Of a stretch of DNA of 64,000 nt, positions 32,226 to 57,013 are shown piece after piece. Within the stretch, counting starts at the first letter, position 1; every line of letters begins with the position of its first letter. The position numbers were made by a program, and so were the translations under genes. The stretch lies in sequence record PZ386953.1; one strand, 5' to 3'. The notes beneath the pieces were generated by a model. That model had not been told where the DNA came from and did no database searches. It worked only from the letters and a program-made list of their open reading frames with translations. Source of the stretch: a phage.

Positions 32226-35003
32226 ATGAGCATGTGGTCGTTCGACTTTGAGTCATCCGGTTTGCTGGAAGATCCAGATCTTTATTATCACTGCGGCCTG
32301 TTTAAAGAGCTGAATAAGAACCGTTTTATGCTGTTCCTTCCTCTAAATGACCGCACACACTACTCCGAAGAGGATATAGAGAAGGCTAAGAACTTTATTC
32401 TGGCAAAGAAAACTCTTCATAAAGATTTTGAAGTTCGCATAGCAGATTTTTCGGAGTTGGAAGGTTGGCTTACAGGCAATTCCGACTGGTCACCAACAGC
32501 TTTGAACTGCCATAACTGCTACAGTTATGACTTTATGCTGATGGAAAGATTATCCGGTATTCATTTTGATATGTTCCGTGATCCTAAATGCATGGGGACT
32601 ATCAACGACCACCAGGTTAACCTGTTTGATACGTTGGCGATGAGCAGAATCTTGTGGCCTGATCGCCCTTTACCAAAAGGTTGTCCGGACTCTGTATTCA
32701 ACCCGGTTACTAAGAAAATGCAGCCTGTTGGTCCTCACGGCCTTATGGCATGGGGCTACGCCCTTGGTAACCAGAAAGTTCAAATTGATGACTGGCGCGA
32801 TCTTCCGTTGTGGAAGTATGTGGATCGTGTATTCGAGGACGTTATCATCCAGGAGCTGCTCTGGAAAGAGCTGGTAGCGGAATCAAAAGGTGTATTCTAC
32901 GGCAAATCTGACATGCAGAACTTTATGTACGATCCAGCCAAAGAGAAGCCGAAAGGGTTCAAGAAAATCACCTGGAAGAACGCATTACGCCGAGGCATGC
33001 TGCAGCACTTCCTGATGGAGCTGCAGGCCCGTCAGGGTGTATACTTCGACATAGATGGAGCTATTGCTTTACGTGACCGTTGTGATGCGTGGATGAAAGA
33101 AATCGCTGATCGTGTTGAACCTCAACTTCCTTTAAAAGAGCTGTCAATGTCTCAGCGGCCCAAGTTCCCTGAAAAGCCGTTTAACCAAGATGGGACAATC
33201 TCCAACAATGGTTGGAAATGGTTAAAAGATAAGCTTGGCTATCCTGTGGACATGAGTGCTTTGGAGTTCAAAGCCCCGCCTAAGCGAGCATTTACCTCCA
33301 CAGGAGATGTCAGCAAGATGGGGATAAAATGGTGTGAAGAGATGGGCTGCAAAGACCCTGATAAGATGGCTGATTTCTTGAGAGGCTATATTAAGGGCAC
33401 TTCCACACCACAACCTTTACCTAAAGAGCTGATGGATCAGGCAATAAGTGATCTACAGCAGAAGCGAATGCCGGACTGCAAGATACCTATGAAAATCAGC
33501 AATCAGGACGACATTAAGCGATACCTGATCAGTGCTGGTTGGCTTCCGACAATGTGGAGAACTAAGGATGTAACTAAAGACAGCAAGAAGAAAGCTCTAC
33601 CTGATGCAGATGTTGATGCACGAGTATATGCATACATGGACGAGCTTTTAGAGTCAGAGTATTGTGACCTGATTATCAACTTCTGGAACAAAACTGATGC
33701 TAAGTTTCAGACAACCGTGCACAAGTTCCGAAGCTTTCCTAACTCCGAAAGGATTAAAAAGGAAGTATTCGGGAAAATACGTAGAAAAGCCAGAGCACTT
33801 ATTACTTCTCCGCAGCTGAAAGATACGTTTGGACACCTATGCCCAAATCTTGAAAAATTGAACGGAGAGATGGCTAAAGATATCGTCTTGTGGTTATCAT
33901 TGCGAAACCGCAGATCGGTCCTTGATCCAATCAAGGAGGATAAGGTTGATACTGGTCTTCTTAATCACCCACGTTTGAAGATTGACCATAAGCTTCCTGC
34001 TAAAAGTTCTGGATTAACAAACACTTCCCGACAGAAACACAGTATTTGTGCAAACATGCCTAAACCATCTCCTAAAGTGGTTATGGGTAAAGAGATGCGC
34101 AGTCTGTGGGGTGTTCCTCCAGGATACTTTGAGATCGGTATTGACGGGTCCAACTTAGAGCAGCTTATCGGGGCTTGGGGTGCCTTTGAGTTCGACAACG
34201 GCCTGTATTACGATGTTGTAAGTAACGGGGATGCCCACCAAAACAATGCTGAGGCATATACGAAAGTAGCAGGTAGAGAGGTGTCTCGTAACGACGGTAA
34301 ACCTATCACGTACGGGGTTATGTATGGGGCACAAAAAGATAAAGTTGCAGACATGCTGGATATCTCCCCAGAGTTGGGGCAAAGGGTAATCGATGCGCTT
34401 TGGGATGCCAACCCTGGTCTTAAAGGGCGTAAAGAGGATCTGGAGAAATTCTGGGAAGCAACGGGTAAGAAGTTTATCTACTCTTTTGATGGTCATGCTA
34501 TCTGGACCCGATCTAAACACTCTTTACTTAATGCATACCAACAAAATGGTGGTGCATCGTTGTGTGACTTAGTTGGGATACTCATGCACCACCAAATGGT
34601 GAAGCGTGGGTGGTACGATGAAGGTGTTCGTCGTATTATTTATTACCATGATGAGTACCAACTTCAGGTCCCTGACACGCCTAAGTATAAGACTGTGTAC
34701 ACCTTCGACACAATTGAAGAATTGGAAGCATTTAAGGCAGAGCAGGAGGCCAAACTTCATGTGTTTGACGGTCATAAGTACAAAAAGGCACGCAAGGATG
34801 AAAACGGAAACGAAGTGGTTGACAGAGACGGAAACACGGTGTACGATCCTATCCTGAACGATGACGGAAAGCTTGAACTTATCTGGAGCCCTGTGGGTGA
34901 AATGGTGGTGCATTGCTTCTGGCAAGCTTCTAAAATGATGGGCGTTCCATTCCAGATCACAGGTGAATACTTGTGTGGTCGGAACTGGGGTGATTGTCAC
35001 TAA
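32226..35003 (+). CDS. family A DNA polymerase with 3'-5' exonuclease domain
   Basis: Exo I FDFESSGL, Exo II NCYSYDF, pol motif B K..YGVMYG, motif C YYHDEYQL. Confidence 0.8.
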   Translation: MSMWSFDFESSGLLEDPDLYYHCGLFKELNKNRFMLFLPLNDRTHYSEEDIEKAKNFILAKKTLHKDFEVRIADFSELEGWLTGNSDWSPTALNCHNCYSYDFMLMERLSGIHFDMFRDPKCMGTINDHQVNLFDTLAMSRILWPDRPLPKGCPDSVFNPVTKKMQPVGPHGLMAWGYALGNQKVQIDDWRDLPLWKYVDRVFEDVIIQELLWKELVAESKGVFYGKSDMQNFMYDPAKEKPKGFKKITWKNALRRGMLQHFLMELQARQGVYFDIDGAIALRDRCDAWMKEIADRVEPQLPLKELSMSQRPKFPEKPFNQDGTISNNGWKWLKDKLGYPVDMSALEFKAPPKRAFTSTGDVSKMGIKWCEEMGCKDPDKMADFLRGYIKGTSTPQPLPKELMDQAISDLQQKRMPDCKIPMKISNQDDIKRYLISAGWLPTMWRTKDVTKDSKKKALPDADVDARVYAYMDELLESEYCDLIINFWNKTDAKFQTTVHKFRSFPNSERIKKEVFGKIRRKARALITSPQLKDTFGHLCPNLEKLNGEMAKDIVLWLSLRNRRSVLDPIKEDKVDTGLLNHPRLKIDHKLPAKSSGLTNTSRQKHSICANMPKPSPKVVMGKEMRSLWGVPPGYFEIGIDGSNLEQLIGAWGAFEFDNGLYYDVVSNGDAHQNNAEAYTKVAGREVSRNDGKPITYGVMYGAQKDKVADMLDISPELGQRVIDALWDANPGLKGRKEDLEKFWEATGKKFIYSFDGHAIWTRSKHSLLNAYQQNGGASLCDLVGILMHHQMVKRGWYDEGVRRIIYYHDEYQLQVPDTPKYKTVYTFDTIEELEAFKAEQEAKLHVFDGHKYKKARKDENGNEVVDRDGNTVYDPILNDDGKLELIWSPVGEMVVHCFWQASKMMGVPFQITGEYLCGRNWGDCH

Positions 35004-37816: not shown

Positions 37817-38182
37817 ATGGAACAAATGAACGATCAAGCGTCGGTTGCGATGAACGAGCAAGAACAACCTCAAGAATTTTTCTTAGGGTTAAGTAAAGAT
37901 CAAGTGTCTCTTCTACTAGTGCTTTCTTCTTTCATGGGAAGACTTCAGGAGCTCACACAACAACCAGAGGCTGAACAATTATTTCAAGCTCTGCGTGAAG
38001 AAGAAAAATATCGTCGTTTGGACTATGCCTTAGGTTGGGTAGCTCAACAACGAGATATGCTGATGGCCCTCTCTGGGACCACAAGTTTTGCAATGGGGCT
38101 GTTGGCTCAAGTTCAGGACAAATTAATTCAAGCAGGGTTTGCACACACGGCAAACACTAACGAAGAACAAGGAGACAAATAA
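37817..38182 (+). CDS. hypothetical protein
   Basis: 121-aa ORF, SD CGGAGA. Confidence 0.45.
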   Translation: MEQMNDQASVAMNEQEQPQEFFLGLSKDQVSLLLVLSSFMGRLQELTQQPEAEQLFQALREEEKYRRLDYALGWVAQQRDMLMALSGTTSFAMGLLAQVQDKLIQAGFAHTANTNEEQGDK

Positions 38183-39408
38183 TGAGCGTTATTCAACAAT
38201 TCGCTAACCCGATGAATCCGCGTGAAACTGTTTTACTGGCTCACGGCATGATTAAACGTGTCAGCATCAAGCCTATCAAAGGTGCTGATCCTACAACAGG
38301 TATTAAAACCACTGTGTGGCAAGGTAAGAAAATTGAATCCAGCCACACCATCTCTTTACTGATTTCTGAACTGGATTCCTCTGATAACCTGCTTCAAGGT
38401 GGTGAAGAAGTTTGGATCAGCATGGGTGATAAGCTGCTTAAACCTGGTCATCAAGACTCTGTCTCTGTTAAAATTGATGACAAGTGGGAAACCGTAACGC
38501 CGGGATGGATCGTAAATATTCCTTTGAAGGCAAACGAGCATAACGGTAAGACCTATTACAAAGGCTCACTGGCTAAGATGGTCAAGCTGGGTGCAGGAGA
38601 GGCTCCAGCAGCGACTCAGCAGCAAAAACAGCAACAAGGTGCACAATCACAAGGCCAGAAGCAGAAACCTCAGCAGAATGCCAATCAGGACGTTTTACGC
38701 ATCTATGGTGATGTGACTCAGATTGTTGGCAACGTGGTTACTGTTAATGACCACAAGATTGGCGAAGGTGCTATGGTTGTAACTGATGAGCAGCTTAAAG
38801 ACCTGGTGGTAGGTGGTCGTGTTGCAGCCATTGTTGACAAAGACACCGGAAACATTATCAGTGGTTTCAAGGCCTATCCTCCTAAGGCAGAGAACGGCAC
38901 TCAAGGCTCTGGTGGCAAGCGTAAATCCTCTTACGACCCTATCGGTGTGGAAACGGGGCATAGCATCAATGCGTTGCAGATCATCCTGGATCGCGGGTTT
39001 AAGGTAGACGACCCACTGGGCGTGGCTAAAACACTGCACGTAGTCACCATTGAGCTTAAGAAAGAGTATGCTCAAGCCACCAACCGAACTGAAGATGAAG
39101 TAGGTGCCAGTGTCGGTAATGCGGTGTTGAACGCTTGTCGCCGTATTGACAAGAAAACGAAAGTTGATGATTTTGCAGTGGCAATTACTGCAGAAGCAAA
39201 AGATGTCTTGACTAATCTAGCTGAGCCGTTGTACGATTGGATCAAGAACGGTGCTGAGTCCACTGACCATCAAGAACCTCAGGCTGCCAAACAGGAAGCA
39301 GCTCCACAGCAAAACACTGTAGACGCTCCTCCTGTAAATGATGCGGAAGATGACCCAATGGATCAGAATCCAGCACAGTACGTCTTTGATGATGACATCC
39401 CATTTTAA
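38182..39408 (+). CDS. ssb: single-stranded DNA-binding protein-like (SSB C-terminal tail)
   Basis: C-terminus ...VFDDDIPF matches the conserved acidic SSB-Ct tip (DDDIPF); Gln/Gly-rich linker precedes it; follows polymerase and primase-helicase. Confidence 0.55.
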   Translation: MSVIQQFANPMNPRETVLLAHGMIKRVSIKPIKGADPTTGIKTTVWQGKKIESSHTISLLISELDSSDNLLQGGEEVWISMGDKLLKPGHQDSVSVKIDDKWETVTPGWIVNIPLKANEHNGKTYYKGSLAKMVKLGAGEAPAATQQQKQQQGAQSQGQKQKPQQNANQDVLRIYGDVTQIVGNVVTVNDHKIGEGAMVVTDEQLKDLVVGGRVAAIVDKDTGNIISGFKAYPPKAENGTQGSGGKRKSSYDPIGVETGHSINALQIILDRGFKVDDPLGVAKTLHVVTIELKKEYAQATNRTEDEVGASVGNAVLNACRRIDKKTKVDDFAVAITAEAKDVLTNLAEPLYDWIKNGAESTDHQEPQAAKQEAAPQQNTVDAPPVNDAEDDPMDQNPAQYVFDDDIPF

Positions 39409-39423
39409 CATTTAGTTAACATA

Positions 39424-39451
39424 GCCCTGCCCGAAAGGGTGGGGCATTTTT
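39424..39451 (+). terminator. intrinsic terminator (same hairpin as 29290)
   Basis: GCCCTGCCC-GAAA-GGGTGGGGC then ATTTTTG. Confidence 0.75.
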
Positions 39452-39470
39452 GTATAAGGAGATCTAAAAA

Positions 39471-39887
39471 ATGACATTAGAAGATATCATTGTTAAACCT
39501 GAGAACTATGACCAATACAACCTGTCAACTCAATCTGTAGACCTTGGATGCGCCACGGTCAGTGCGTGGCTGGTTAACGGAAAAGAGCTGGATAAATGCT
39601 TAGAAGCTCACATGTCTATTAACAAGTTTCTGGATGAAAATACTCACTGGCTTGAGGGTGCAGGAGTATATGCTTCATGGTTGGAAAGTATGGGATTCGA
39701 CTACCAATCTGAAGAAGGGTGGTGGAGCTATTTAGCTATCTGCCCAGAGACGCTGCAATGCTTCATGAAATATTCTGAAGATTTGGAGTACCGGGCGGTG
39801 GTTGATAGTGCTATTGCCCGTTATAGCCGTAAACCTTTTTCCCACGACATTAAAACTGTGGAAGAGTTTGTTGAAGTTTTCTGTTGA
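39471..39887 (+). CDS. hypothetical protein
   Basis: 138-aa ORF with AAGGAG SD. Confidence 0.5.
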   Translation: MTLEDIIVKPENYDQYNLSTQSVDLGCATVSAWLVNGKELDKCLEAHMSINKFLDENTHWLEGAGVYASWLESMGFDYQSEEGWWSYLAICPETLQCFMKYSEDLEYRAVVDSAIARYSRKPFSHDIKTVEEFVEVFC

Positions 39888-39983
39888 CACAGGTGGAAAG
39901 GTGTGCAATTATAACTTCATAGAACGGGAGGACGTGATGAACGAAGAAAACTGGGATGTATAACTAACAGGAGGCCACTGCCC

Positions 39984-40181
39984 ATGATTTATCGAATCCG
40001 TGTAAGAGAAGATGCACCAGGCTGTTACTTTGACTGGCGTGGGTGGTGGTTTCTCCACCCAATGGATGGACTCACGGATAGAATGCTGGATGCTGCCCTT
40101 TATACAGATACCGACATAGAATATAATCTCTATCTGAAGGACGGTATAGATAACGGCCTGTTTGAAGCAATTCCTGTGTAA
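39984..40181 (+). CDS. hypothetical protein
   Basis: 65-aa ORF, SD AGGAGG. Confidence 0.4.
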   Translation: MIYRIRVREDAPGCYFDWRGWWFLHPMDGLTDRMLDAALYTDTDIEYNLYLKDGIDNGLFEAIPV

Positions 40182-40246
40182 GAGACTGTGATAGCTATGT
40201 TTTATGATCTTCCTGTAACACCACCTGTTGAACCCGGAGAACTAAG

Positions 40247-40672
40247 ATGATCTATGAAATGCCAAAACTGATTCGTGACGATGCCCAAAACGCCCACACC
40301 TTTATCATGGGCAAGCGCATGGATATTATTTGTCATAAAGATTTCTGGGAAGGTAGTTACTTCACAGAATATTTTGGTAAACTGGATAATGGTCTGCTGA
40401 TCCAGTTCTACACCGATGCGGAAAACAATATCTGCTGGGAGTTCGAAACTGAAGATATCCATAAACTTTTCACCTTCCTAGGTATTAAGGTTGAGGCCAA
40501 GTTTGAAGAAGGCGAGTGCGACGATTGTGGATTCTACGAGGTAACAGATTTCTATCTCCCAAGTGGTGAGAACCTTTACTATGAAAGCCACTTCGGCAAC
40601 TCAAATATGCCACAAGGTTGGGATGAGTTTTTTGAAATTGCGGAAGAGGAGCTGACATACCGTGATTATTGA
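40247..40672 (+). CDS. hypothetical protein
   Basis: 141-aa ORF. Confidence 0.45.
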   Translation: MIYEMPKLIRDDAQNAHTFIMGKRMDIICHKDFWEGSYFTEYFGKLDNGLLIQFYTDAENNICWEFETEDIHKLFTFLGIKVEAKFEEGECDDCGFYEVTDFYLPSGENLYYESHFGNSNMPQGWDEFFEIAEEELTYRDY

Positions 40673-41120
40673 TACTGTAGCGGGAGATTTAATCTCCCTT
40701 TTTAAGAGCGGTGCTGGTCACCTGATCCACGGTTGTAACTGCTTTCATACAATGGGTGCAGGCATAGCGAAAGATATTGCCCGTGAGTTCCCTCAAGCAC
40801 TGGCAGCCGACAAAGAGACTGCCTATGGTAATCTGGACAAGCTGGGTATGTTTTCTTGTTGGGAGCATTTTGCCAAGAACAGGGTCGTATATGGAATCAA
40901 CCTGTATACCCAGTTCTACCCAGGGCCCAATGCTGAATACTTCTCAATAATGAAAGGTTTTGAGCGAGTCAACGAGGTATTCAAAGGTGTGTCATTGCCG
41001 TTCTACATTCCTAAAATTGGATGCGGTATTGGCGGTCTAAAGTGGGAACATGTAGAAGATGTAATTAATCTTGCAACCACAGATATTGATGTGGTTGTAG
41101 TAGAGTACAAAAAGTGTTGA
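40662..41120 (+). CDS. macro domain protein (DarG/TARG1-like ADP-ribosyl hydrolase fold)
   Basis: GTG start; LIHGCNCFHTMGAGIAKDIAREFP matches the NC..MG.GIA...FP signature of DarG/TARG1-type macro domains; C-terminal GCGIGG glycine motif. Confidence 0.55.
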   Translation: MIIDTVAGDLISLFKSGAGHLIHGCNCFHTMGAGIAKDIAREFPQALAADKETAYGNLDKLGMFSCWEHFAKNRVVYGINLYTQFYPGPNAEYFSIMKGFERVNEVFKGVSLPFYIPKIGCGIGGLKWEHVEDVINLATTDIDVVVVEYKKC

Positions 41121-41371
41121 CGACCATCTTCTGAGGTGATATAGTTTCCACAACAACTAAGAGAGGAGAGCACTGTGGAGACTAAAATCTTAATTCTTGC
41201 TGTGGTAGATACAACCGAAGGAGCTATATTCGAATCTGCAGGGGGGTATTTCTACCTACCATACGGAAAAAGAACTTCCGAGCCAAGTAAAGATTCAATC
41301 CTCAAGGTGTTCCCGTGTGCTTTCTGGCTGGAGATTTTGGTATAAGATTGCAGAGGATTTGGGAGAGAATT

Positions 41372-41566
41372 ATGAGAAACAAGAAAGAGCTTTACTCTGG
41401 TGAGTGGATCAACGATCAACAGGTGGGAGAGGTAACCTGCTTCCGATGTTTTACCAGGTACAATCTTAAAACTGCACCAAAAAGTGTTCCAAAGACTGAT
41501 GGTTATTACATAAAAGAACCTCATTGCCCAAAATGTAAATGCCGATTATACTGGAGTAACCTATAA
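41372..41566 (+). CDS. small zinc-ribbon protein
   Basis: CxxC ... CxxC (CFRC ... CPKCKC); start at internal ATG with GGGAGAG SD. Confidence 0.4.
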   Translation: MRNKKELYSGEWINDQQVGEVTCFRCFTRYNLKTAPKSVPKTDGYYIKEPHCPKCKCRLYWSNL

Positions 41567-41629
41567 AAGATTGACATCTGAAAACTGCAGTGTATAATAT
41601 ATGCATAAACTAACAGAGAGTGATGTATT

Positions 41630-41821
41630 ATGGTAATTTTTAACCGGGATGGTATCATAGTTAGACAGCACCCCTTCCTTGAATACTATCAAATTGAGCA
41701 ATGGTGCTACGGGGATTGCAGTCACTCCTACGGGCAAAGTTGGGGATATCGCACAGTTTTTGAATCAACAGATCTTGATAAAGTAAAACAGAAAGTTTTA
41801 GAACTTCTTAACAACAAGTGA
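41630..41821 (+). CDS. hypothetical protein
   Basis: 63-aa ORF. Confidence 0.4.
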   Translation: MVIFNRDGIIVRQHPFLEYYQIEQWCYGDCSHSYGQSWGYRTVFESTDLDKVKQKVLELLNNK

Positions 41822-41831
41822 GTATCGTGCC

Positions 41832-42164
41832 ATGGTAACTTTGGAAAGACGTAAAGCTATCGCCGCCACACTGGCAGACATCTTTTGGGATTGCAACTTA
41901 AAAGATACCCGAAATTGTGGCGCATCTGTAGATGTATTATTCCCACGGCCCACCATTGTTGCAATGGGAAACCTGTTAAACGTAGTGTACGGAGCATGGG
42001 ACAAAGAAGGTGGATTCTATATCTGGCAACCTGACTACGGAGCCTGGAAAGAGGTAAGGGGTGCGGATGACTTTGGGCCTACAGTTGCTAAGATGGATGG
42101 CTGGGAAATTTATGTTGGAAACGACATGAAGCTGAAAGGCGAGATTGTTTACTGGTTACCTTAA
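41832..42164 (+). CDS. hypothetical protein
   Basis: 110-aa ORF. Confidence 0.45.
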   Translation: MVTLERRKAIAATLADIFWDCNLKDTRNCGASVDVLFPRPTIVAMGNLLNVVYGAWDKEGGFYIWQPDYGAWKEVRGADDFGPTVAKMDGWEIYVGNDMKLKGEIVYWLP

Positions 42165-42184
42165 GAAAGTGCAGGAGATAAAGT

Positions 42185-42430
42185 ATGAACAAAGGGTGGA
42201 CATTTGTAGACGGCGTTAAAAACATGCCTCTAGGAAAGTATATCGTAGCCATGGCTGATGAGGATGGCAATGTAGATTTCGGAGCTTGCGAGGTTGTTCT
42301 TGCAGGATCTGGTAACTATGTGAGTAAAACCGGGATAATTAACGGTCAGTTCTACTTTGATCACAACCCTGTTGTAGCGTATATGGCTATGCCAGAGTTC
42401 AAGTTCCCAAAGGAGGGTGCAGATGTTTAA
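42185..42430 (+). CDS. hypothetical protein
   Basis: 81-aa ORF, SD AGGAGA. Confidence 0.45.
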   Translation: MNKGWTFVDGVKNMPLGKYIVAMADEDGNVDFGACEVVLAGSGNYVSKTGIINGQFYFDHNPVVAYMAMPEFKFPKEGADV

Positions 42431-42620
42431 GCTTAAATCTGCATGGAACATCGCTGTGGGGGACGAGATCCGTATCCCAGGTGGAAAGACCATTATGAAG
42501 ATATCTCGTATTGAGTACGAAGGTGACCGTGTATTCCACATCTTCGCAGAAGATGGTCGAGAAATTTATATACAGGCAGGTTCTCACATCTATATCCGTA
42601 AGAAAGGGGACGACAAATGA
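42417..42620 (+). CDS. hypothetical protein
   Basis: 67-aa ORF overlapping neighbours by a few nt. Confidence 0.4.
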   Translation: MQMFKLKSAWNIAVGDEIRIPGGKTIMKISRIEYEGDRVFHIFAEDGREIYIQAGSHIYIRKKGDDK

Positions 42621-42946
42621 CAGAGATCATCATTTCAACTGCAGGGTATGTGTTCCTGACAATCATTGCACTGACTATTTTGGTGACAGTGTATGGGTTT
42701 GTTATCCTTCCTATCCTTGAGACATTTAGTTTGTGTCGGTGTTGGAGAAAAGCTTACGGTCCACAACCATGGAAGGACTGGCCCCACCTGGTGCGCTTAG
42801 CGTTCTCTTATGCTTACGATCACTACAGTAGTGCATGCATAACCGGATACCACGCCCACAACTGGAGCTGGGAAGGGTTGAGGAAATGGAATGTTACAAA
42901 GACCATACCTCTGCGCATGTACAAACCTAAAAACAAAGACAACTGA
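42617..42946 (+). CDS. small membrane protein
   Basis: N-terminal TM helix IIISTAGYVFLTIIALTILVTVYGFVILPIL. Confidence 0.45.
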   Translation: MTEIIISTAGYVFLTIIALTILVTVYGFVILPILETFSLCRCWRKAYGPQPWKDWPHLVRLAFSYAYDHYSSACITGYHAHNWSWEGLRKWNVTKTIPLRMYKPKNKDN

Positions 42947-43254
42947 TACTTGAAAATTCCTGGCATATCAAGTATAAGGGGGATTTCTAAAATGGATTTC
43001 CTCCTTTTGATATTTCACCGGGCTGGATATTTTAAAATTCTTAGAAAATCAGAAAATGGATCGAAAACTAAAATGTATTTTTCAGAGTAGGCGCGACAAG
43101 CTGAATAACTCATCCTATCGTTTGCACCATATTCCAGGCCACCATTATAGATTTTCCCACACATGCTCACATCCTTCTACCAGAACTTTCCCACTCGCCC
43201 TTGGCCTTTTATGGCAATAATCCAGCCACTATCTTGAAGTTGCGGTACAGCTTT

Positions 43255-54479: not shown

Positions 54480-54497
54480 TTTCTTAACTGAACTATC

Positions 54498-54526
54498 AGG
54501 GGCTTTAAAAGGCCCCTTTCTTTTTG
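54498..54526 (+). terminator. intrinsic terminator closing the + strand early block
   Basis: GGGGCTTT-AAAA-GGCCCC then TTTCTTTTT. Confidence 0.7.
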
Positions 54527-55129
54527 TCTGTATTTCTCCTACCACAAACGGCCCCACCTGGCAAGTGGAATAATTGACTAGCCATCAATCCCACACACTG
54601 TACAAATATACATGTAAAATAGCTATTGCATAATCTTTCATTGTGTGGTAGCAGGGCCATTTTTACACGTTTTTCCTTCCAAAATTGCACGTAATGCCGC
54701 TATTGCACAAAATTTAACCTGATGCATATCTTCAGTGTCTTGTCAACAACTAAAAATCTTTATAAGTCATACACTTACACACTCACAAAAGCGTGTTCTA
54801 CGTGAAAAATCGAGTATAACTATAGCCGCCAGATCTCAGAATTTACGTACGTTCACCATTCTATAGTCTGCTAAGTATTTATTCCAACCATAGAATAATG
54901 GAATAGTCAATACCTGCATAAAATAATTATTCGTGTAAACTGCATAACATAAATCAGCTTAGGTGTCAACATTTTTCGTAAACAGCCTGAAATTATCACG
55001 GTGAGTTATCATAAACAGAGAAATCTTTAGTCGTCTAATGTTTACTGTACATTACTATACTTACTGGAATCATTAGATGACTAAGAGAAAGATAAGAAAT
55101 AATTAACAATACAATTATTTTATCTGTAA

Positions 55130-55570
55130 CAATAAGGCAACTATGCAAACGAATGGCATGGCGCGACGGAGTCGCGACATAATATAAAAGCAGTAACCAT
55201 CACCCCCGTGATAGTTTGTCTGCAAACTATTAATCAGATCATAGTTGCCTTGTATTTAGTTAATCATGACATAACAAGCAAGGCAACTATAGATCTGCTA
55301 ATAGTTGCCCTGCTTTTATATTATGTCATATATTATTAACCTGTTAATTGTCAGCTTATTGGCTGTTAGCTTGTCAATTGTTAACTTGTTAATTGTTATC
55401 ATGCAAACGAATGTCATGGCTTATCATCTTTGTGTAAACAGTCAATCATGTAAATGATAAGTATGTGAACAGTTATCCATGTAAACTATTAGACATGTAA
55501 ACAATCAGGTGTGCAAAAGTGTCATAGTATGTCACTATTGTGTCTAAAGTGTCACCAGTATGTCAGACAA
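55130..55570. repeat. iteron-like repeat array (candidate origin / regulatory hub)
   Basis: GGCAACTAT x4 in both orientations incl. a 29-bp palindrome around AGATCT; 20-mer ATGCAAACGAATG(G/T)CATGGC x2; TTAATTGT x4; ATGTAAAC x4; TGTCA x5 phased at 9-11 bp. Confidence 0.6.
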
Positions 55571-56125
55571 GTTTTTCTCCTCTTTGTCAAGTGCTGCATG
55601 AAAAATTTACAAACTGGTATGGTAGCATTTTTGCGGCCCTGTTTACATTCAGCGATGTATGTATAAACCTTGCTGTGTGGGCGTTTAGACGTCTAGACGG
55701 TTGGAAGTCTGCAGGTCAATATCTAATCTATTGGCTGCTAACCATATCCCACACAAATAGTAATAAATATAATTGTTATATGCGTAAACAGTAACTCATG
55801 TTATCAATCCCTGTATGTATCGCCAGTGGTGCGCATAATGGGTATTATGTTAAATTGCCCGTAATGATAACTATTCTCACAATGATAGGTATTCTCATTC
55901 ACCCCCACAAGATAGGTTGCAAATGTTGTGCCACTGTGTGAACGGCCTAGCCTATTAATTTGCCTCACTGCCTTGATATTTGAGAATTGTTATAAGAATG
56001 AGAAGTATTCCCATTTCGTCCGCTTGGCAGCACTCCAGTCGCTACCGGCTCCTGACAGGGCAGCACTCCTGTCGGTCAGGTCAAAATCGTGGTATAACTG
56101 GACCTGTTCAGATATTTCTGGCTGA

Positions 56126-56664
56126 CTCTTCAGGCCTGTGTGGGAAAAGCCGACCCCTCCGGCGGCGGGGAGGGGGTCAATTAAAAAATTTACGGGGTAT
56201 ATGAAGCGCTCTTCAGGTAAGGCAGGTATTATGGGATGAAACCCTCTTCAGGTAATGATATTTGTGGGTGTGATATTTGCTGGAAAGCCAGATATTACGG
56301 GACTCCCGGCGGGGCAGGGGTGGTACAGACAGGGAAAATATGGGGATGTAGTTGGGTAAATTGATCAGACAGGTAGGGTATAGGATATGTTACAAGTATG
56401 TTAAATATGGAGGTTGAATATCTGTAAGATTTGTGTGTAAAATCAAAGACTTAAGTGGTGTTGTGGTATTTTCTATAAATAATTCAAGTTTAATAGGTGA
56501 TATTTGTCCCTATCTACTTTGTGTGGTAAACAGATTCAGATGAGATTGGTTTACGAGTGTATACATAATATACAAATTAAAGATACAAGAAACCCCCTCC
56601 CCCTTCGGCTACCATTCACCTTTTCCTCTGACTGGTACTTAAACACTTATTCAGACTCTTCAGG
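56126..56664. repeat. CTCTTCAGG motif repeats and GC-rich hairpins in ORF-free region
   Basis: CTCTTCAGG at about 56126, 56209, 56245, 56656; inverted repeat GACCCCTCC-GGCGGC-GGGGAGGGGGTC at about 56152-56178. Confidence 0.5.
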
Positions 56665-57013
56665 TTATCACCCATATATCATATGGCAGTGACTGGTGTC
56701 CTCCGGCCCCTCTTTCGTCACCCGTCCGCTTCGCCATGCTAATGCCATAGCCAAATGTTCGGTTGTTCACCATGTTCACTCAGGTGTATCTCCATACCCC
56801 TTCAAACCGAAGAGAACAGAAAACCCGAATTACTCGGTAAAAGAAAAGAGAAGAACTTAATTTTATCAGGATAGGCAAGAATGTCAAGGCATGACTGCTC
56901 ACTAAACAAGCAAACAGTCATGTGTGGAAGGTAAGTGATTGTGGTGGTGGGAAATTTAGTTGAAAGATGTATTGTAGGTGCTCCAGCACTTTAGCCGGGC
57001 AGCTAATTGTGTG

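What the first reader, a model, noticed from the sequence alone, without database searches (positions are those of the whole stretch)
40662..41120. DarG/TARG1-like macro domain protein: candidate ADP-ribosylation reversal (anti-defence) enzyme
Seen: a 152-aa ORF with LIHGCNCFHTMGAGIAKDIAREFP and a C-terminal GCGIGG motif. Established: the NC..MG.GIA...FP signature marks DarG/TARG1-type macro domains, which remove ADP-ribose from DNA or protein. Inference: a stand-alone phage copy could neutralise host ADP-ribosyltransferase defences such as DarT-like toxins. It lies just downstream of the replication module.
Basis: partly seen in the sequence, partly recalled or inferred. Interest (0 to 1): 0.65.

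Follow-up and report, generated by a model that had tools for sequence, protein, structure and literature searches.

The report
Phage macrodomain, likely anti-DarT2 DNA-repair enzyme
This rV5-like E. coli phage gene encodes a small ADP-ribose-removing enzyme related to phage T4 Tk.4/AdfM, which T4 needs to grow on cells carrying the DarTG2 defence, so it is a sound but largely anticipated counter-defence candidate.

Summary
The ORF is real: 40662..41120, + strand, GTG start, 152 aa, with both quoted motifs. It is a macro domain by Pfam score and by a high-confidence predicted structure, and it falls in the structural class that holds TARG1, DarG, SCO6735, BT1257 and Poa1p.

The window is a Vequintavirus about 98.7% identical to phage Murica. 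There the gene is already annotated as a macro-domain "phosphatase", and as "tk.4" in phage V5. It is 39% identical over its full length to T4 Tk.4. A 2025 preprint named Tk.4 AdfM because deleting it makes T4 sensitive to DarTG2.

One refinement matters. The catalytic lysine of DarG (K80) and TARG1 (K84) is an invariant glutamine here (Q84), and TARG1's D125 is a glycine. This matches SCO6735, a lysine-less enzyme whose Gln85 is essential and which removes ADP-ribose from thymidine in DNA faster than DarG. PhiKZ gp104, also called AdfM, keeps the lysine and is much closer to DarG.

No ADP-ribosyltransferase or NADAR partner was found among the window ORFs tested. The rV5-type protein itself has not been tested experimentally.

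Verdict: a new member of a known kind, of modest interest.

The parts
40662..41120 (+). CDS of the 152-aa stand-alone macro domain protein, a homologue of T4 Tk.4/AdfM (GTG start, TGA stop)
   Evidence: ORF and sequence. Pfam Macro is above its gathering score and PHROG 335 gives 1.4e-59. It is 39% identical to T4 Tk.4 with E = 1e-43. The AF2 model has pLDDT 94.2 and a macro fold.
40647..40651 (+). Shine-Dalgarno sequence AGGAG, 10 nt upstream of the GTG start. It lies inside the 3' end of the upstream ORF 40247..40672, which overlaps the macro ORF by 11 nt.
   Evidence: Read from the sequence. A ribosome-binding site is annotated at the equivalent position in phage Murica.
40728..40742 (+). 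Codons for H23-G24-C25-N26-C27. N26 corresponds to DarG N22, PhiKZ AdfM N23 and SCO6735 N27. H23 corresponds to SCO6735 H24 and Poa1p H23.
   Evidence: N26, G24 and C27 are invariant and H23 is at least 90% conserved across 55 family members. Column equivalences come from the joint alignment. Mutating this Asn reduces activity in DarG, SCO6735 and PhiKZ AdfM.
40755..40769 (+). Codons for G32-A33-G34-I35-A36, the GxG ADP-ribose-binding loop of macro domains
   Evidence: G34 and A36 are invariant and G32 is nearly so. The stretch aligns with MGAGIA of TARG1 and MGKGIA of DarG.
40899..40913 (+). Codons for N80-L81-Y82-T83-Q84. Q84 occupies the catalytic-lysine column (TARG1 K84, DarG K80, PhiKZ K78) and matches SCO6735 Q85.
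   Evidence: N80, Y82 and Q84 are invariant in the family alignment. NxY[T/S]Q is present in 116 of 120 retrieved homologues and none has PTK. SCO6735 Q85A and Q85E are inactive.
41019..41036 (+). Codons for G120-C121-G122-I123-G124-G125, the phosphate-binding loop. G124 sits where TARG1 has its catalytic D125.
   Evidence: G120 and G122 are invariant. They align with SCO6735 G126 and G128 and with GCGLD of TARG1. SCO6735 G128E and DarG G119E reduce activity.

Best explanation
The gene encodes a stand-alone enzyme that removes ADP-ribose from other molecules. It belongs to the ALC1-like class of macro domains (TARG1, DarG, SCO6735) and to the phage family typified by T4 Tk.4/AdfM. Its most likely role is to undo damage from the host toxin DarT2. 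When DarT2 of a DarTG2 system attaches ADP-ribose to thymidines in the phage's single-stranded replicating DNA, the enzyme would bind the ADP-ribosyl-thymidine and cut the ribose-thymine bond. That releases free ADP-ribose and lets replication continue. Catalysis is probably lysine-independent, as in SCO6735: Gln84, held in place by Asn26, positions the distal ribose, a bound water does the chemistry, and the G32-x-G34 and G120-x-G122 loops grip the diphosphate. Shown here: the ORF, the macro fold, class membership, full-length homology to T4 Tk.4, the invariant Gln, and the absence of a DarT-binding domain or an adjacent transferase. Taken from the literature: the DarTG2 phenotype of T4 tk.4 and the SCO6735 mechanism. 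Inferred: that this protein has the same substrate and role.
Against: Neither this protein nor any Vequintavirus homologue has been tested. The Bas54 (Vequintavirus) transposon library was not reported on DarTG2. For T4 AdfM only genetics is available, and enzymatic removal is inferred by the authors. At 39% identity, substrate specificity could differ. The family is as similar to Poa1p, a small-molecule ADP-ribose-1''-phosphatase, as it is to DarG. SCO6735's Lys34 and its longer mobile loop with Lys89 and Lys93, which help bind DNA, have no counterpart here: A33 and a short loop. The protein is net acidic by my own residue count, 17 D/E against 14 K/R. A bacterial family member is an orphan gene with no DarT nearby.
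Confidence: 0.6

Rival explanations
1. The enzyme acts on small soluble ADP-ribose derivatives and not on DNA. Candidates are ADP-ribose-1''-phosphate (as for Poa1p), O-acetyl-ADP-ribose, or ADP-ribose-based immune signals or toxins made by host TIR, RES or sirtuin defence systems.
Against: The only functional data for this family is a DarTG2-specific phenotype of T4 tk.4. The 'phosphatase' label comes from the old name of the domain and not from an assay. The nearest mechanistic match, SCO6735 with its Gln, prefers DNA substrates. The two roles are not mutually exclusive.
Confidence: 0.2
2. The enzyme removes ADP-ribose from proteins or RNA. It would either reverse host ADP-ribosyltransferase defences that target proteins or mRNA, or tune the phage's own ADP-ribosylation of host proteins.
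For: TARG1 and SCO6735 also hydrolyse Glu/Asp-linked protein ADP-ribosylation, and TARG1 is the top Foldseek and profile hit.
Against: No transferase domain was found in the 20 larger window ORFs scanned, and none is annotated in this part of Murica or JLBYU08. The TARG1 Lys/Asp dyad used for protein substrates is absent. SCO6735 strongly prefers DNA in competition assays.
Confidence: 0.12
3. The protein does not hydrolyse anything. It only binds ADP-ribose or blocks DarT, acting by sequestering ADP-ribosylated sites or the toxin itself, because the catalytic lysine has been lost.
For: The catalytic Lys of DarG and TARG1 is replaced. Catalytically dead SCO6735 Q85A still inhibits DarT through interaction.
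Against: The Gln is invariant, as are N26 and the glycine loops, which is the pattern expected of a conserved active site. The same Gln is catalytically essential in SCO6735. The protein has no counterpart of DarG's C-terminal DarT-binding domain. The DarG macro domain alone carrying K80A did not inhibit DarT.
Confidence: 0.05

Closest known systems
T4 Tk.4 = AdfM (anti-DarT factor Macrodomain), bioRxiv 10.1101/2025.11.20.689424
   Same: Both are stand-alone proteins of about 150 aa, alignable end to end at 39% identity (E = 1e-43). They share the HGCNCFHTMG, NLYTQ-x-PGPN-x-EY and IG-x-GIG blocks and the same PHROG family.
   Different: They come from different phage families (Vequintavirinae against Straboviridae) and different neighbourhoods: T4 tk.4 sits between vs and tk.3, while this gene sits among small genes after the SSB gene. 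The DarTG2 phenotype is shown only for T4.
Streptomyces coelicolor SCO6735 (PDB 5E3B), PMC9411070
   Same: Both are stand-alone ALC1-like macro domains with Gln in the catalytic-lysine column. Both also have the partner Asn, the preceding His and the two loop glycines. SCO6735 hydrolyses thymidine-linked ADPr-DNA.
   Different: Identity is about 26%. SCO6735 has a mobile loop five residues longer, carrying Lys89 and Lys93, and also has Lys34; this protein has the short TARG1/DarG-length loop and A33. SCO6735 is a chromosomal bacterial gene, not a phage gene.
DarG antitoxin macro domain (T. aquaticus 5M31/5M3E, M. tuberculosis 5M3I)
   Different: DarG K80 is Gln here. This protein has no C-terminal DarT-binding domain and no adjacent darT. 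It scores 47 bits on the NCBIfam DarG equivalog against a cut-off of 250.
PhiKZ gp104, also named AdfM (Cell Rep 2026, PMC13309987)
   Same: Both are phage-encoded stand-alone macro domains. PhiKZ gp104 is shown in vitro to remove DarT2-added ADP-ribose from DNA and to rescue cells from DarT2 toxicity.
   Different: Identity is only 22%. PhiKZ gp104 keeps the DarG-type FPTK lysine (K78) and scores 133 bits on the PADLOC DarG model, against 49 bits here. The two 'AdfM' proteins are separate lineages.
Human TARG1/OARD1 (PDB 4J5R/4J5S)
   Same: It is the best Foldseek and profile-HMM hit (E = 1.7e-9 and 8.9e-14) and has the same size and topology.
   Different: Both residues of TARG1's catalytic dyad are replaced: K84 by Q84 and D125 by G124.
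Yeast Poa1p (PDB 6LFQ), ADP-ribose-1''-phosphate phosphatase
   Different: Poa1p is longer (about 177 aa, with insertions). Its middle region could not be aligned residue by residue here, and its substrate is a small molecule.

Membership tests
Macro domain superfamily (Pfam PF01661) | Score above the Pfam gathering threshold | tested here: met
   25.9 bits against a cut-off of 22.
Macro domain superfamily (Pfam PF01661) | Three-layer alpha/beta macro fold with a GxG loop | tested here: met
ALC1-like / TARG1-like macro class (TARG1, DarG, SCO6735, BT1257) | Closer in structure to class members than to the MacroD, viral nsp3 or PARG classes | tested here: met
TARG1 | Catalytic Lys84/Asp125 dyad | tested here: not met
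   K84 aligns with Q84 and D125 aligns with G124.
DarG antitoxin (DarTG2) | Catalytic lysine (Taq K80) | tested here: not met
   This column holds Gln84, which is invariant in the family.
DarG antitoxin (DarTG2) | C-terminal DarT-binding domain (full length about 330-340 aa) | tested here: not met
   The protein is 152 aa and matches only positions 4-144 of the 338-position NCBIfam DarG model, scoring 47.3 bits against a cut-off of 250.
DarG antitoxin (DarTG2) | Encoded next to a darT toxin gene | tested here: not met
   The neighbours are small phage genes of unknown function. No transferase is annotated or detected.
SCO6735-type lysine-independent dT-ADPr hydrolases | Gln in the catalytic-lysine column, plus the Asn that positions it and the two phosphate-loop glycines | tested here: met
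   Q84, N26, G120 and G122 align with SCO6735 Q85, N27, G126 and G128, and all four are invariant in the family.
SCO6735-type lysine-independent dT-ADPr hydrolases | Mobile loop five residues longer than in TARG1 or DarG, with DNA-contacting Lys89 (and Lys34) | tested here: not met
   The loop after Q84 has the TARG1 length (YTQFY-PGP against IGQHGMKTGSKGA), and SCO6735 K34 aligns with A33.
Phage Tk.4 / AdfM family (PHROG 335) | Full-length homology to T4 Tk.4 with the family-invariant residues | tested here: met
   39% identity with E = 1e-43 and PHROG 335 at 1.4e-59. The invariants G24, N26, C27, M31, G34, A36, D50, N80, Y82, Q84, P117, G120 and G122 are shared with T4.
Phage Tk.4 / AdfM family (PHROG 335) | Protects the phage from DarTG2 | not testable with these tools
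   This is shown only for T4 tk.4. It was not reported for the Vequintavirus Bas54.
Poa1p-type ADP-ribose-1''-phosphatase | Poa1p residues probed by mutation (H23, S30, F152) and phosphatase activity | tested here: inconclusive
   H23 aligns with H23 and S30 with T30. The F152 region and the central part could not be aligned with the data available. The Poa1p paper is not in the library, and activity cannot be tested here.

The most novel reading that the evidence does not exclude
The T4/rV5-type 'AdfM' proteins form their own lineage of lysine-independent DNA de-ADP-ribosylases. They combine the essential glutamine of SCO6735 with the short loop of TARG1 and DarG, and add family-specific invariant residues (D50, K60, Y82). 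Phages would have recruited them from orphan bacterial macro proteins and not from DarG antitoxins, independently of the lysine-type PhiKZ AdfM. If so, phages arrived at DarT2 reversal at least twice with different chemistry, and the Gln-type enzymes may have a different or wider substrate range, for example other DNA or RNA ADP-ribosylating toxins or soluble ADPr signals.
Probability: 0.4. Interest if true: 0.45.

Novelty: new member of a known kind. Interest (0 to 1): 0.3.

Why it matters
The finding extends a recently identified phage counter-defence, AdfM against DarTG2, to the rV5-like Vequintavirinae. These are broad-host-range E. coli phages used in typing and considered for therapy, so knowing their anti-defence genes helps predict host range. 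The Gln-for-Lys difference shows that proteins now sharing the name AdfM belong to at least two lineages that probably use different chemistry. It also gives a clear target for mutagenesis (Q84, N26). Neither AdfM paper, in the passages and term searches I ran, mentions the Gln or SCO6735.

Tried and rejected
I re-ran it without that row.

2. I looked for a partner transferase, NADAR or other NAD/ADPr gene. Pfam scans of 20 window ORFs of 125 aa or more found only a tail-fibre assembly protein, a cell-wall hydrolase and a weak AAA hit. Smaller ORFs and the rest of the genome were not scanned.

3. I tested the idea that the gene is an orphan antitoxin captured from a DarTG operon. The one bacterial family member examined (Pelagimonas) sits among housekeeping genes with no DarT, and another contig looks like phage. 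This gives no support for DarTG ancestry of the lineage, but it rests on a single bacterial example.

4. The hairpin with a T-run at 40682-40698, inside the ORF and annotated as a terminator in Murica, is not distinguishable from chance: 4 terminator-like sites were found against 3.6 expected. It also overlaps the conserved GDL-x-x-LF coding stretch.

5. The Poa1p structural paper is not in the library, so only part of the Poa1p residue mapping could be done.

6. A full-text search for 'AdfM' returned mostly unrelated hits.

7. I could not superpose the model on the ADPr-bound structures 5M3E or 4J5S, because model coordinates are not exposed. Active-site geometry therefore rests on sequence columns alone.

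8. The pairwise HMMER alignment to SCO6735 misplaces the Gln by five columns because the loops differ in length. I relied instead on the multiple alignment, the TARG1 profile alignment and the published structure-based equivalence.

Full report
**Observation.** It runs from 40662 to 41120 on the + strand, with a GTG start, 152 codons and a TGA stop. LIHGCNCFHTMGAGIAKDIAREFP is residues 21-44 and GCGIGG is residues 120-125. An AGGAG Shine-Dalgarno sequence lies 10 nt upstream of the start. The start overlaps the end of the preceding 141-aa ORF (40247..40672) by 11 nt. The gene lies on the same strand as, and a few small genes downstream of, a DNA polymerase (32226..35003) and an SSB-like protein with a DDDIPF tail (38182..39408). 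It is clearly a real gene. Pfam Macro scores 25.9 bits against a gathering score of 22, PHROG 335 ('phosphatase') gives E = 1.4e-59, and database homologues reach E = 9.6e-97.

**Where the window comes from.** The 5 kb around the gene is 98.7% identical to Escherichia phage Murica and 96-98% identical to many other rV5-like phages (Vequintavirus). In all, 122 phage records match this stretch. The gene is already annotated in these records: 'phosphatase; contains Macro domain' in Murica RefSeq, 'putative macro domain-containing protein' in JLBYU08, and 'tk.4: phosphatase' in phage V5. A tblastn search finds relatives in 2,742 phage records. About 119 of these are at least 80% identical. The T4-like relatives, at about 39-45% identity, lie next to the vs gene, which is the position of T4 tk.4.

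**Fold and class.** An AlphaFold2 model built from a 54-sequence alignment is confident, with pLDDT 94.2 and pTM 0.90.
- The best Foldseek hits against the PDB are TARG1 (1.7e-9), Poa1p, the T. aquaticus and M. tuberculosis DarG macro domains, BT1257 and SCO6735.
- A family profile scores TARG1, BT1257, DarG, SCO6735 and Poa1p almost equally, at 9e-14 to 2e-12.

The PADLOC DarG model gives 49 bits, against 133 bits for PhiKZ gp104. The NCBIfam DarG equivalog gives 47 bits against a cut-off of 250, and only its N-terminal 144 positions are matched.

**What is known about the family.** T4 Tk.4 (NP_049723, 155 aa) aligns end to end with the window protein at 39% identity, E = 1e-43. A November 2025 preprint (10.1101/2025.11.20.689424) screened a T4 transposon library on E. 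coli expressing DarTG2. It found tk.4 as the single significant hit and showed that a clean tk.4 deletion sensitises T4 to DarTG2. The authors renamed the gene adfM. They inferred enzymatic removal of ADP-ribose from DNA but did not demonstrate it. The same study built a library in the Vequintavirus Bas54 but did not report testing it on DarTG2. Separately, PhiKZ gp104 was also named AdfM (PMC13309987). It removes DarT2-added ADP-ribose from an oligonucleotide in vitro and rescues cells from DarT2 toxicity.

**The catalytic site differs from DarG and TARG1.** In a 55-sequence family alignment that includes T4, the invariant residues are G24, N26, C27, M31, G34, A36, D50, N80, Y82, Q84, P117, G120 and G122.
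- The profile alignment to TARG1 places Q84 on catalytic K84 and G124 on catalytic D125.
- A joint alignment places window Q84, T4 Gln, SCO6735 Q85, TARG1 K84, Mtb DarG Lys and PhiKZ Lys in one column.
- Of 120 retrieved homologues, 116 carry NxY[T/S]Q and none has PTK. The other four are truncated or rearranged.

In DarG, the K80A change abolishes activity. However, SCO6735 is a member of the same class with Gln85 in that column, and its biochemistry removes the objection (PMC9411070). It hydrolyses thymidine-linked ADPr-DNA faster than DarG or TARG1 and rescues cells from DarT toxicity. Q85A and Q85E abolish its activity and N27S nearly does. The authors propose a water-mediated mechanism in which the Gln positions the distal ribose. 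The window protein has equivalents of SCO6735 H24, N27, Q85, G126 and G128, namely H23, N26, Q84, G120 and G122. It lacks K34 (A33 here) and the five-residue-longer mobile loop that carries K89 and K93. It is therefore SCO6735-like in its catalytic centre and TARG1/DarG-like in loop length, with family-specific invariant residues (D50, K60, Y82) that remain unexplained.

**Two lineages share the name AdfM.** PhiKZ gp104 translates to ...MFPTKDNW..., and its authors name N23 and K78 as active-site residues. It is only 22% identical to the window protein (hhalign probability 96.8%) and is far closer to DarG. Neither AdfM paper mentions the Gln or SCO6735 in the passages and term searches I ran.

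**Context.** Pfam scans of 20 larger window ORFs found no transferase, NADAR or other ADP-ribose or NAD-related domain, and none is annotated in Murica or JLBYU08 for this part of the genome. Some other Vequintavirinae (Bas60-62) carry a NADAR-type AdfN against DarTG1. The region has more sigma70-like promoter matches than shuffled sequence: 15 against 8.1 ± 3.1. One lies at 40099-40127, upstream of the preceding ORF. This fits expression by host RNA polymerase early in infection, but these are consensus matches only. A bacterial family member (Pelagimonas) is an orphan gene among housekeeping genes with no DarT.

**Mechanism and confidence.** The most likely role (about 0.6) is hydrolysis of DarT2-made ADP-ribosyl-thymidine in phage single-stranded DNA, using Gln-assisted, lysine-independent chemistry and acting on the product of the toxin and not on the toxin itself. 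The rivals are:
- a hydrolase of small ADP-ribose derivatives or immune signals, Poa1p-like (about 0.2);
- a protein or RNA de-ADP-ribosylase (about 0.12);
- a non-catalytic binder (about 0.05).

These roles are not mutually exclusive. That the protein is a catalytically competent macro-domain ADP-ribosyl hydrolase of the ALC1-like class is much more certain, above 0.9.

**Verdict.** The finding is a new member of a known kind: a homologue of T4 AdfM in rV5-like phages, already annotated as a macro domain. Interest is modest. The useful additions are the Gln-type active site, the split of 'AdfM' into two lineages, and a direct experiment that existing resources allow: the Bas54 library on DarTG2, plus Q84 and N26 mutants.

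Noticed in passing
window 54480-56890: A stretch of about 2.4 kb has no sizeable ORF, tRNA or Rfam match. It lies where + strand genes (on the left) meet - strand genes (on the right). GC content falls to 0.33-0.39 and AT skew changes sign. Short direct and inverted repeats cluster at 55127-55501, including a perfect 18-nt inverted repeat (55176-55193 / 55310-55327) and three copies of a 21-nt repeat. The HIDEN-SEQ preprint reports that the equivalent ~2 kb intergenic region of Vequintavirus Bas54 tolerates no transposon insertions. This could be a replication origin or another essential cis-acting element.
   Followed up: partly
window 40247-41120 (protein P0017 from a 135.5-kb contig): One related phage contig encodes a fusion of the N-terminal part of the upstream ORF (MIYEMPKLIRDD...) to the C-terminal half of the macro domain. 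This is an internal deletion that removes the HGCNC and NLYTQ motifs. Three other homologues are truncated or frameshifted. The gene is therefore dispensable and is occasionally lost.
   Followed up: partly
window 40682-40698: A 7-bp hairpin followed by a T-run (GGGAGATTTAATCTCCC TTTTTAAG) lies 20 nt inside the macro ORF, just after the upstream ORF ends. Murica annotates it as a terminator. The number of such sites in the region is no higher than in shuffled sequence, so it may be chance.
   Followed up: partly
window 41571-41598 and 41117-41145: A perfect sigma70 consensus promoter (TTGACA, 16-nt spacer, TATAAT) lies about 450 nt downstream of the macro gene. A second good match with an extended -10 TG lies right at the gene's stop codon. 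The region as a whole is enriched in such sites.
   Followed up: no
window 38182-39408: A 408-aa protein annotated as SSB in JLBYU08 has a long Gln-rich low-complexity linker and ends in DDDIPF, the classic bacterial SSB C-terminal tip that recruits host replication and repair proteins. It is preceded by a second small SSB-annotated ORF.
   Followed up: no
window 38000-43000 (phage records MG065646, MG065647, MG065659 and others): Sixteen GenBank records labelled 'Campylobacter phage', with host Campylobacter jejuni, are 96-98% identical to this E. coli Vequintavirus region. This suggests mislabelled or contaminating phages in those deposits.
   Followed up: no
BFVD hit A0A481YV05 (Marseillevirus LCMAC103) to the protein at window 40662-41120: The best viral structural match is a 302-aa giant-virus protein named 'SNF2 subfamily protein'. 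Its macro domain is 40% identical (TM-score 0.93). Several phage Tk.4-type proteins in BFVD are 240-260 aa long, so this domain also occurs fused to extra sequence.
   Followed up: no
phage record PP418985.1 (Escherichia phage UPWr_E1, 168 kb), 163175-163627: A phage with a T4-sized genome carries a copy 69% identical to the rV5-type protein, whereas T4 itself is 39% identical. This hints at exchange of the gene between rV5-like and T-even-like phages, or at two subfamilies within T-even-like phages.
   Followed up: no
residues D50 and K60 of the protein (window nt 40809-40811 and 40839-40841): D50 is invariant and K60 is at least 90% conserved in the Tk.4 family, within the A-D-K-x-T-xx-G-xx-K-L-G segment. 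They have no counterpart in DarG, TARG1 or SCO6735, and their role is unknown.
   Followed up: no
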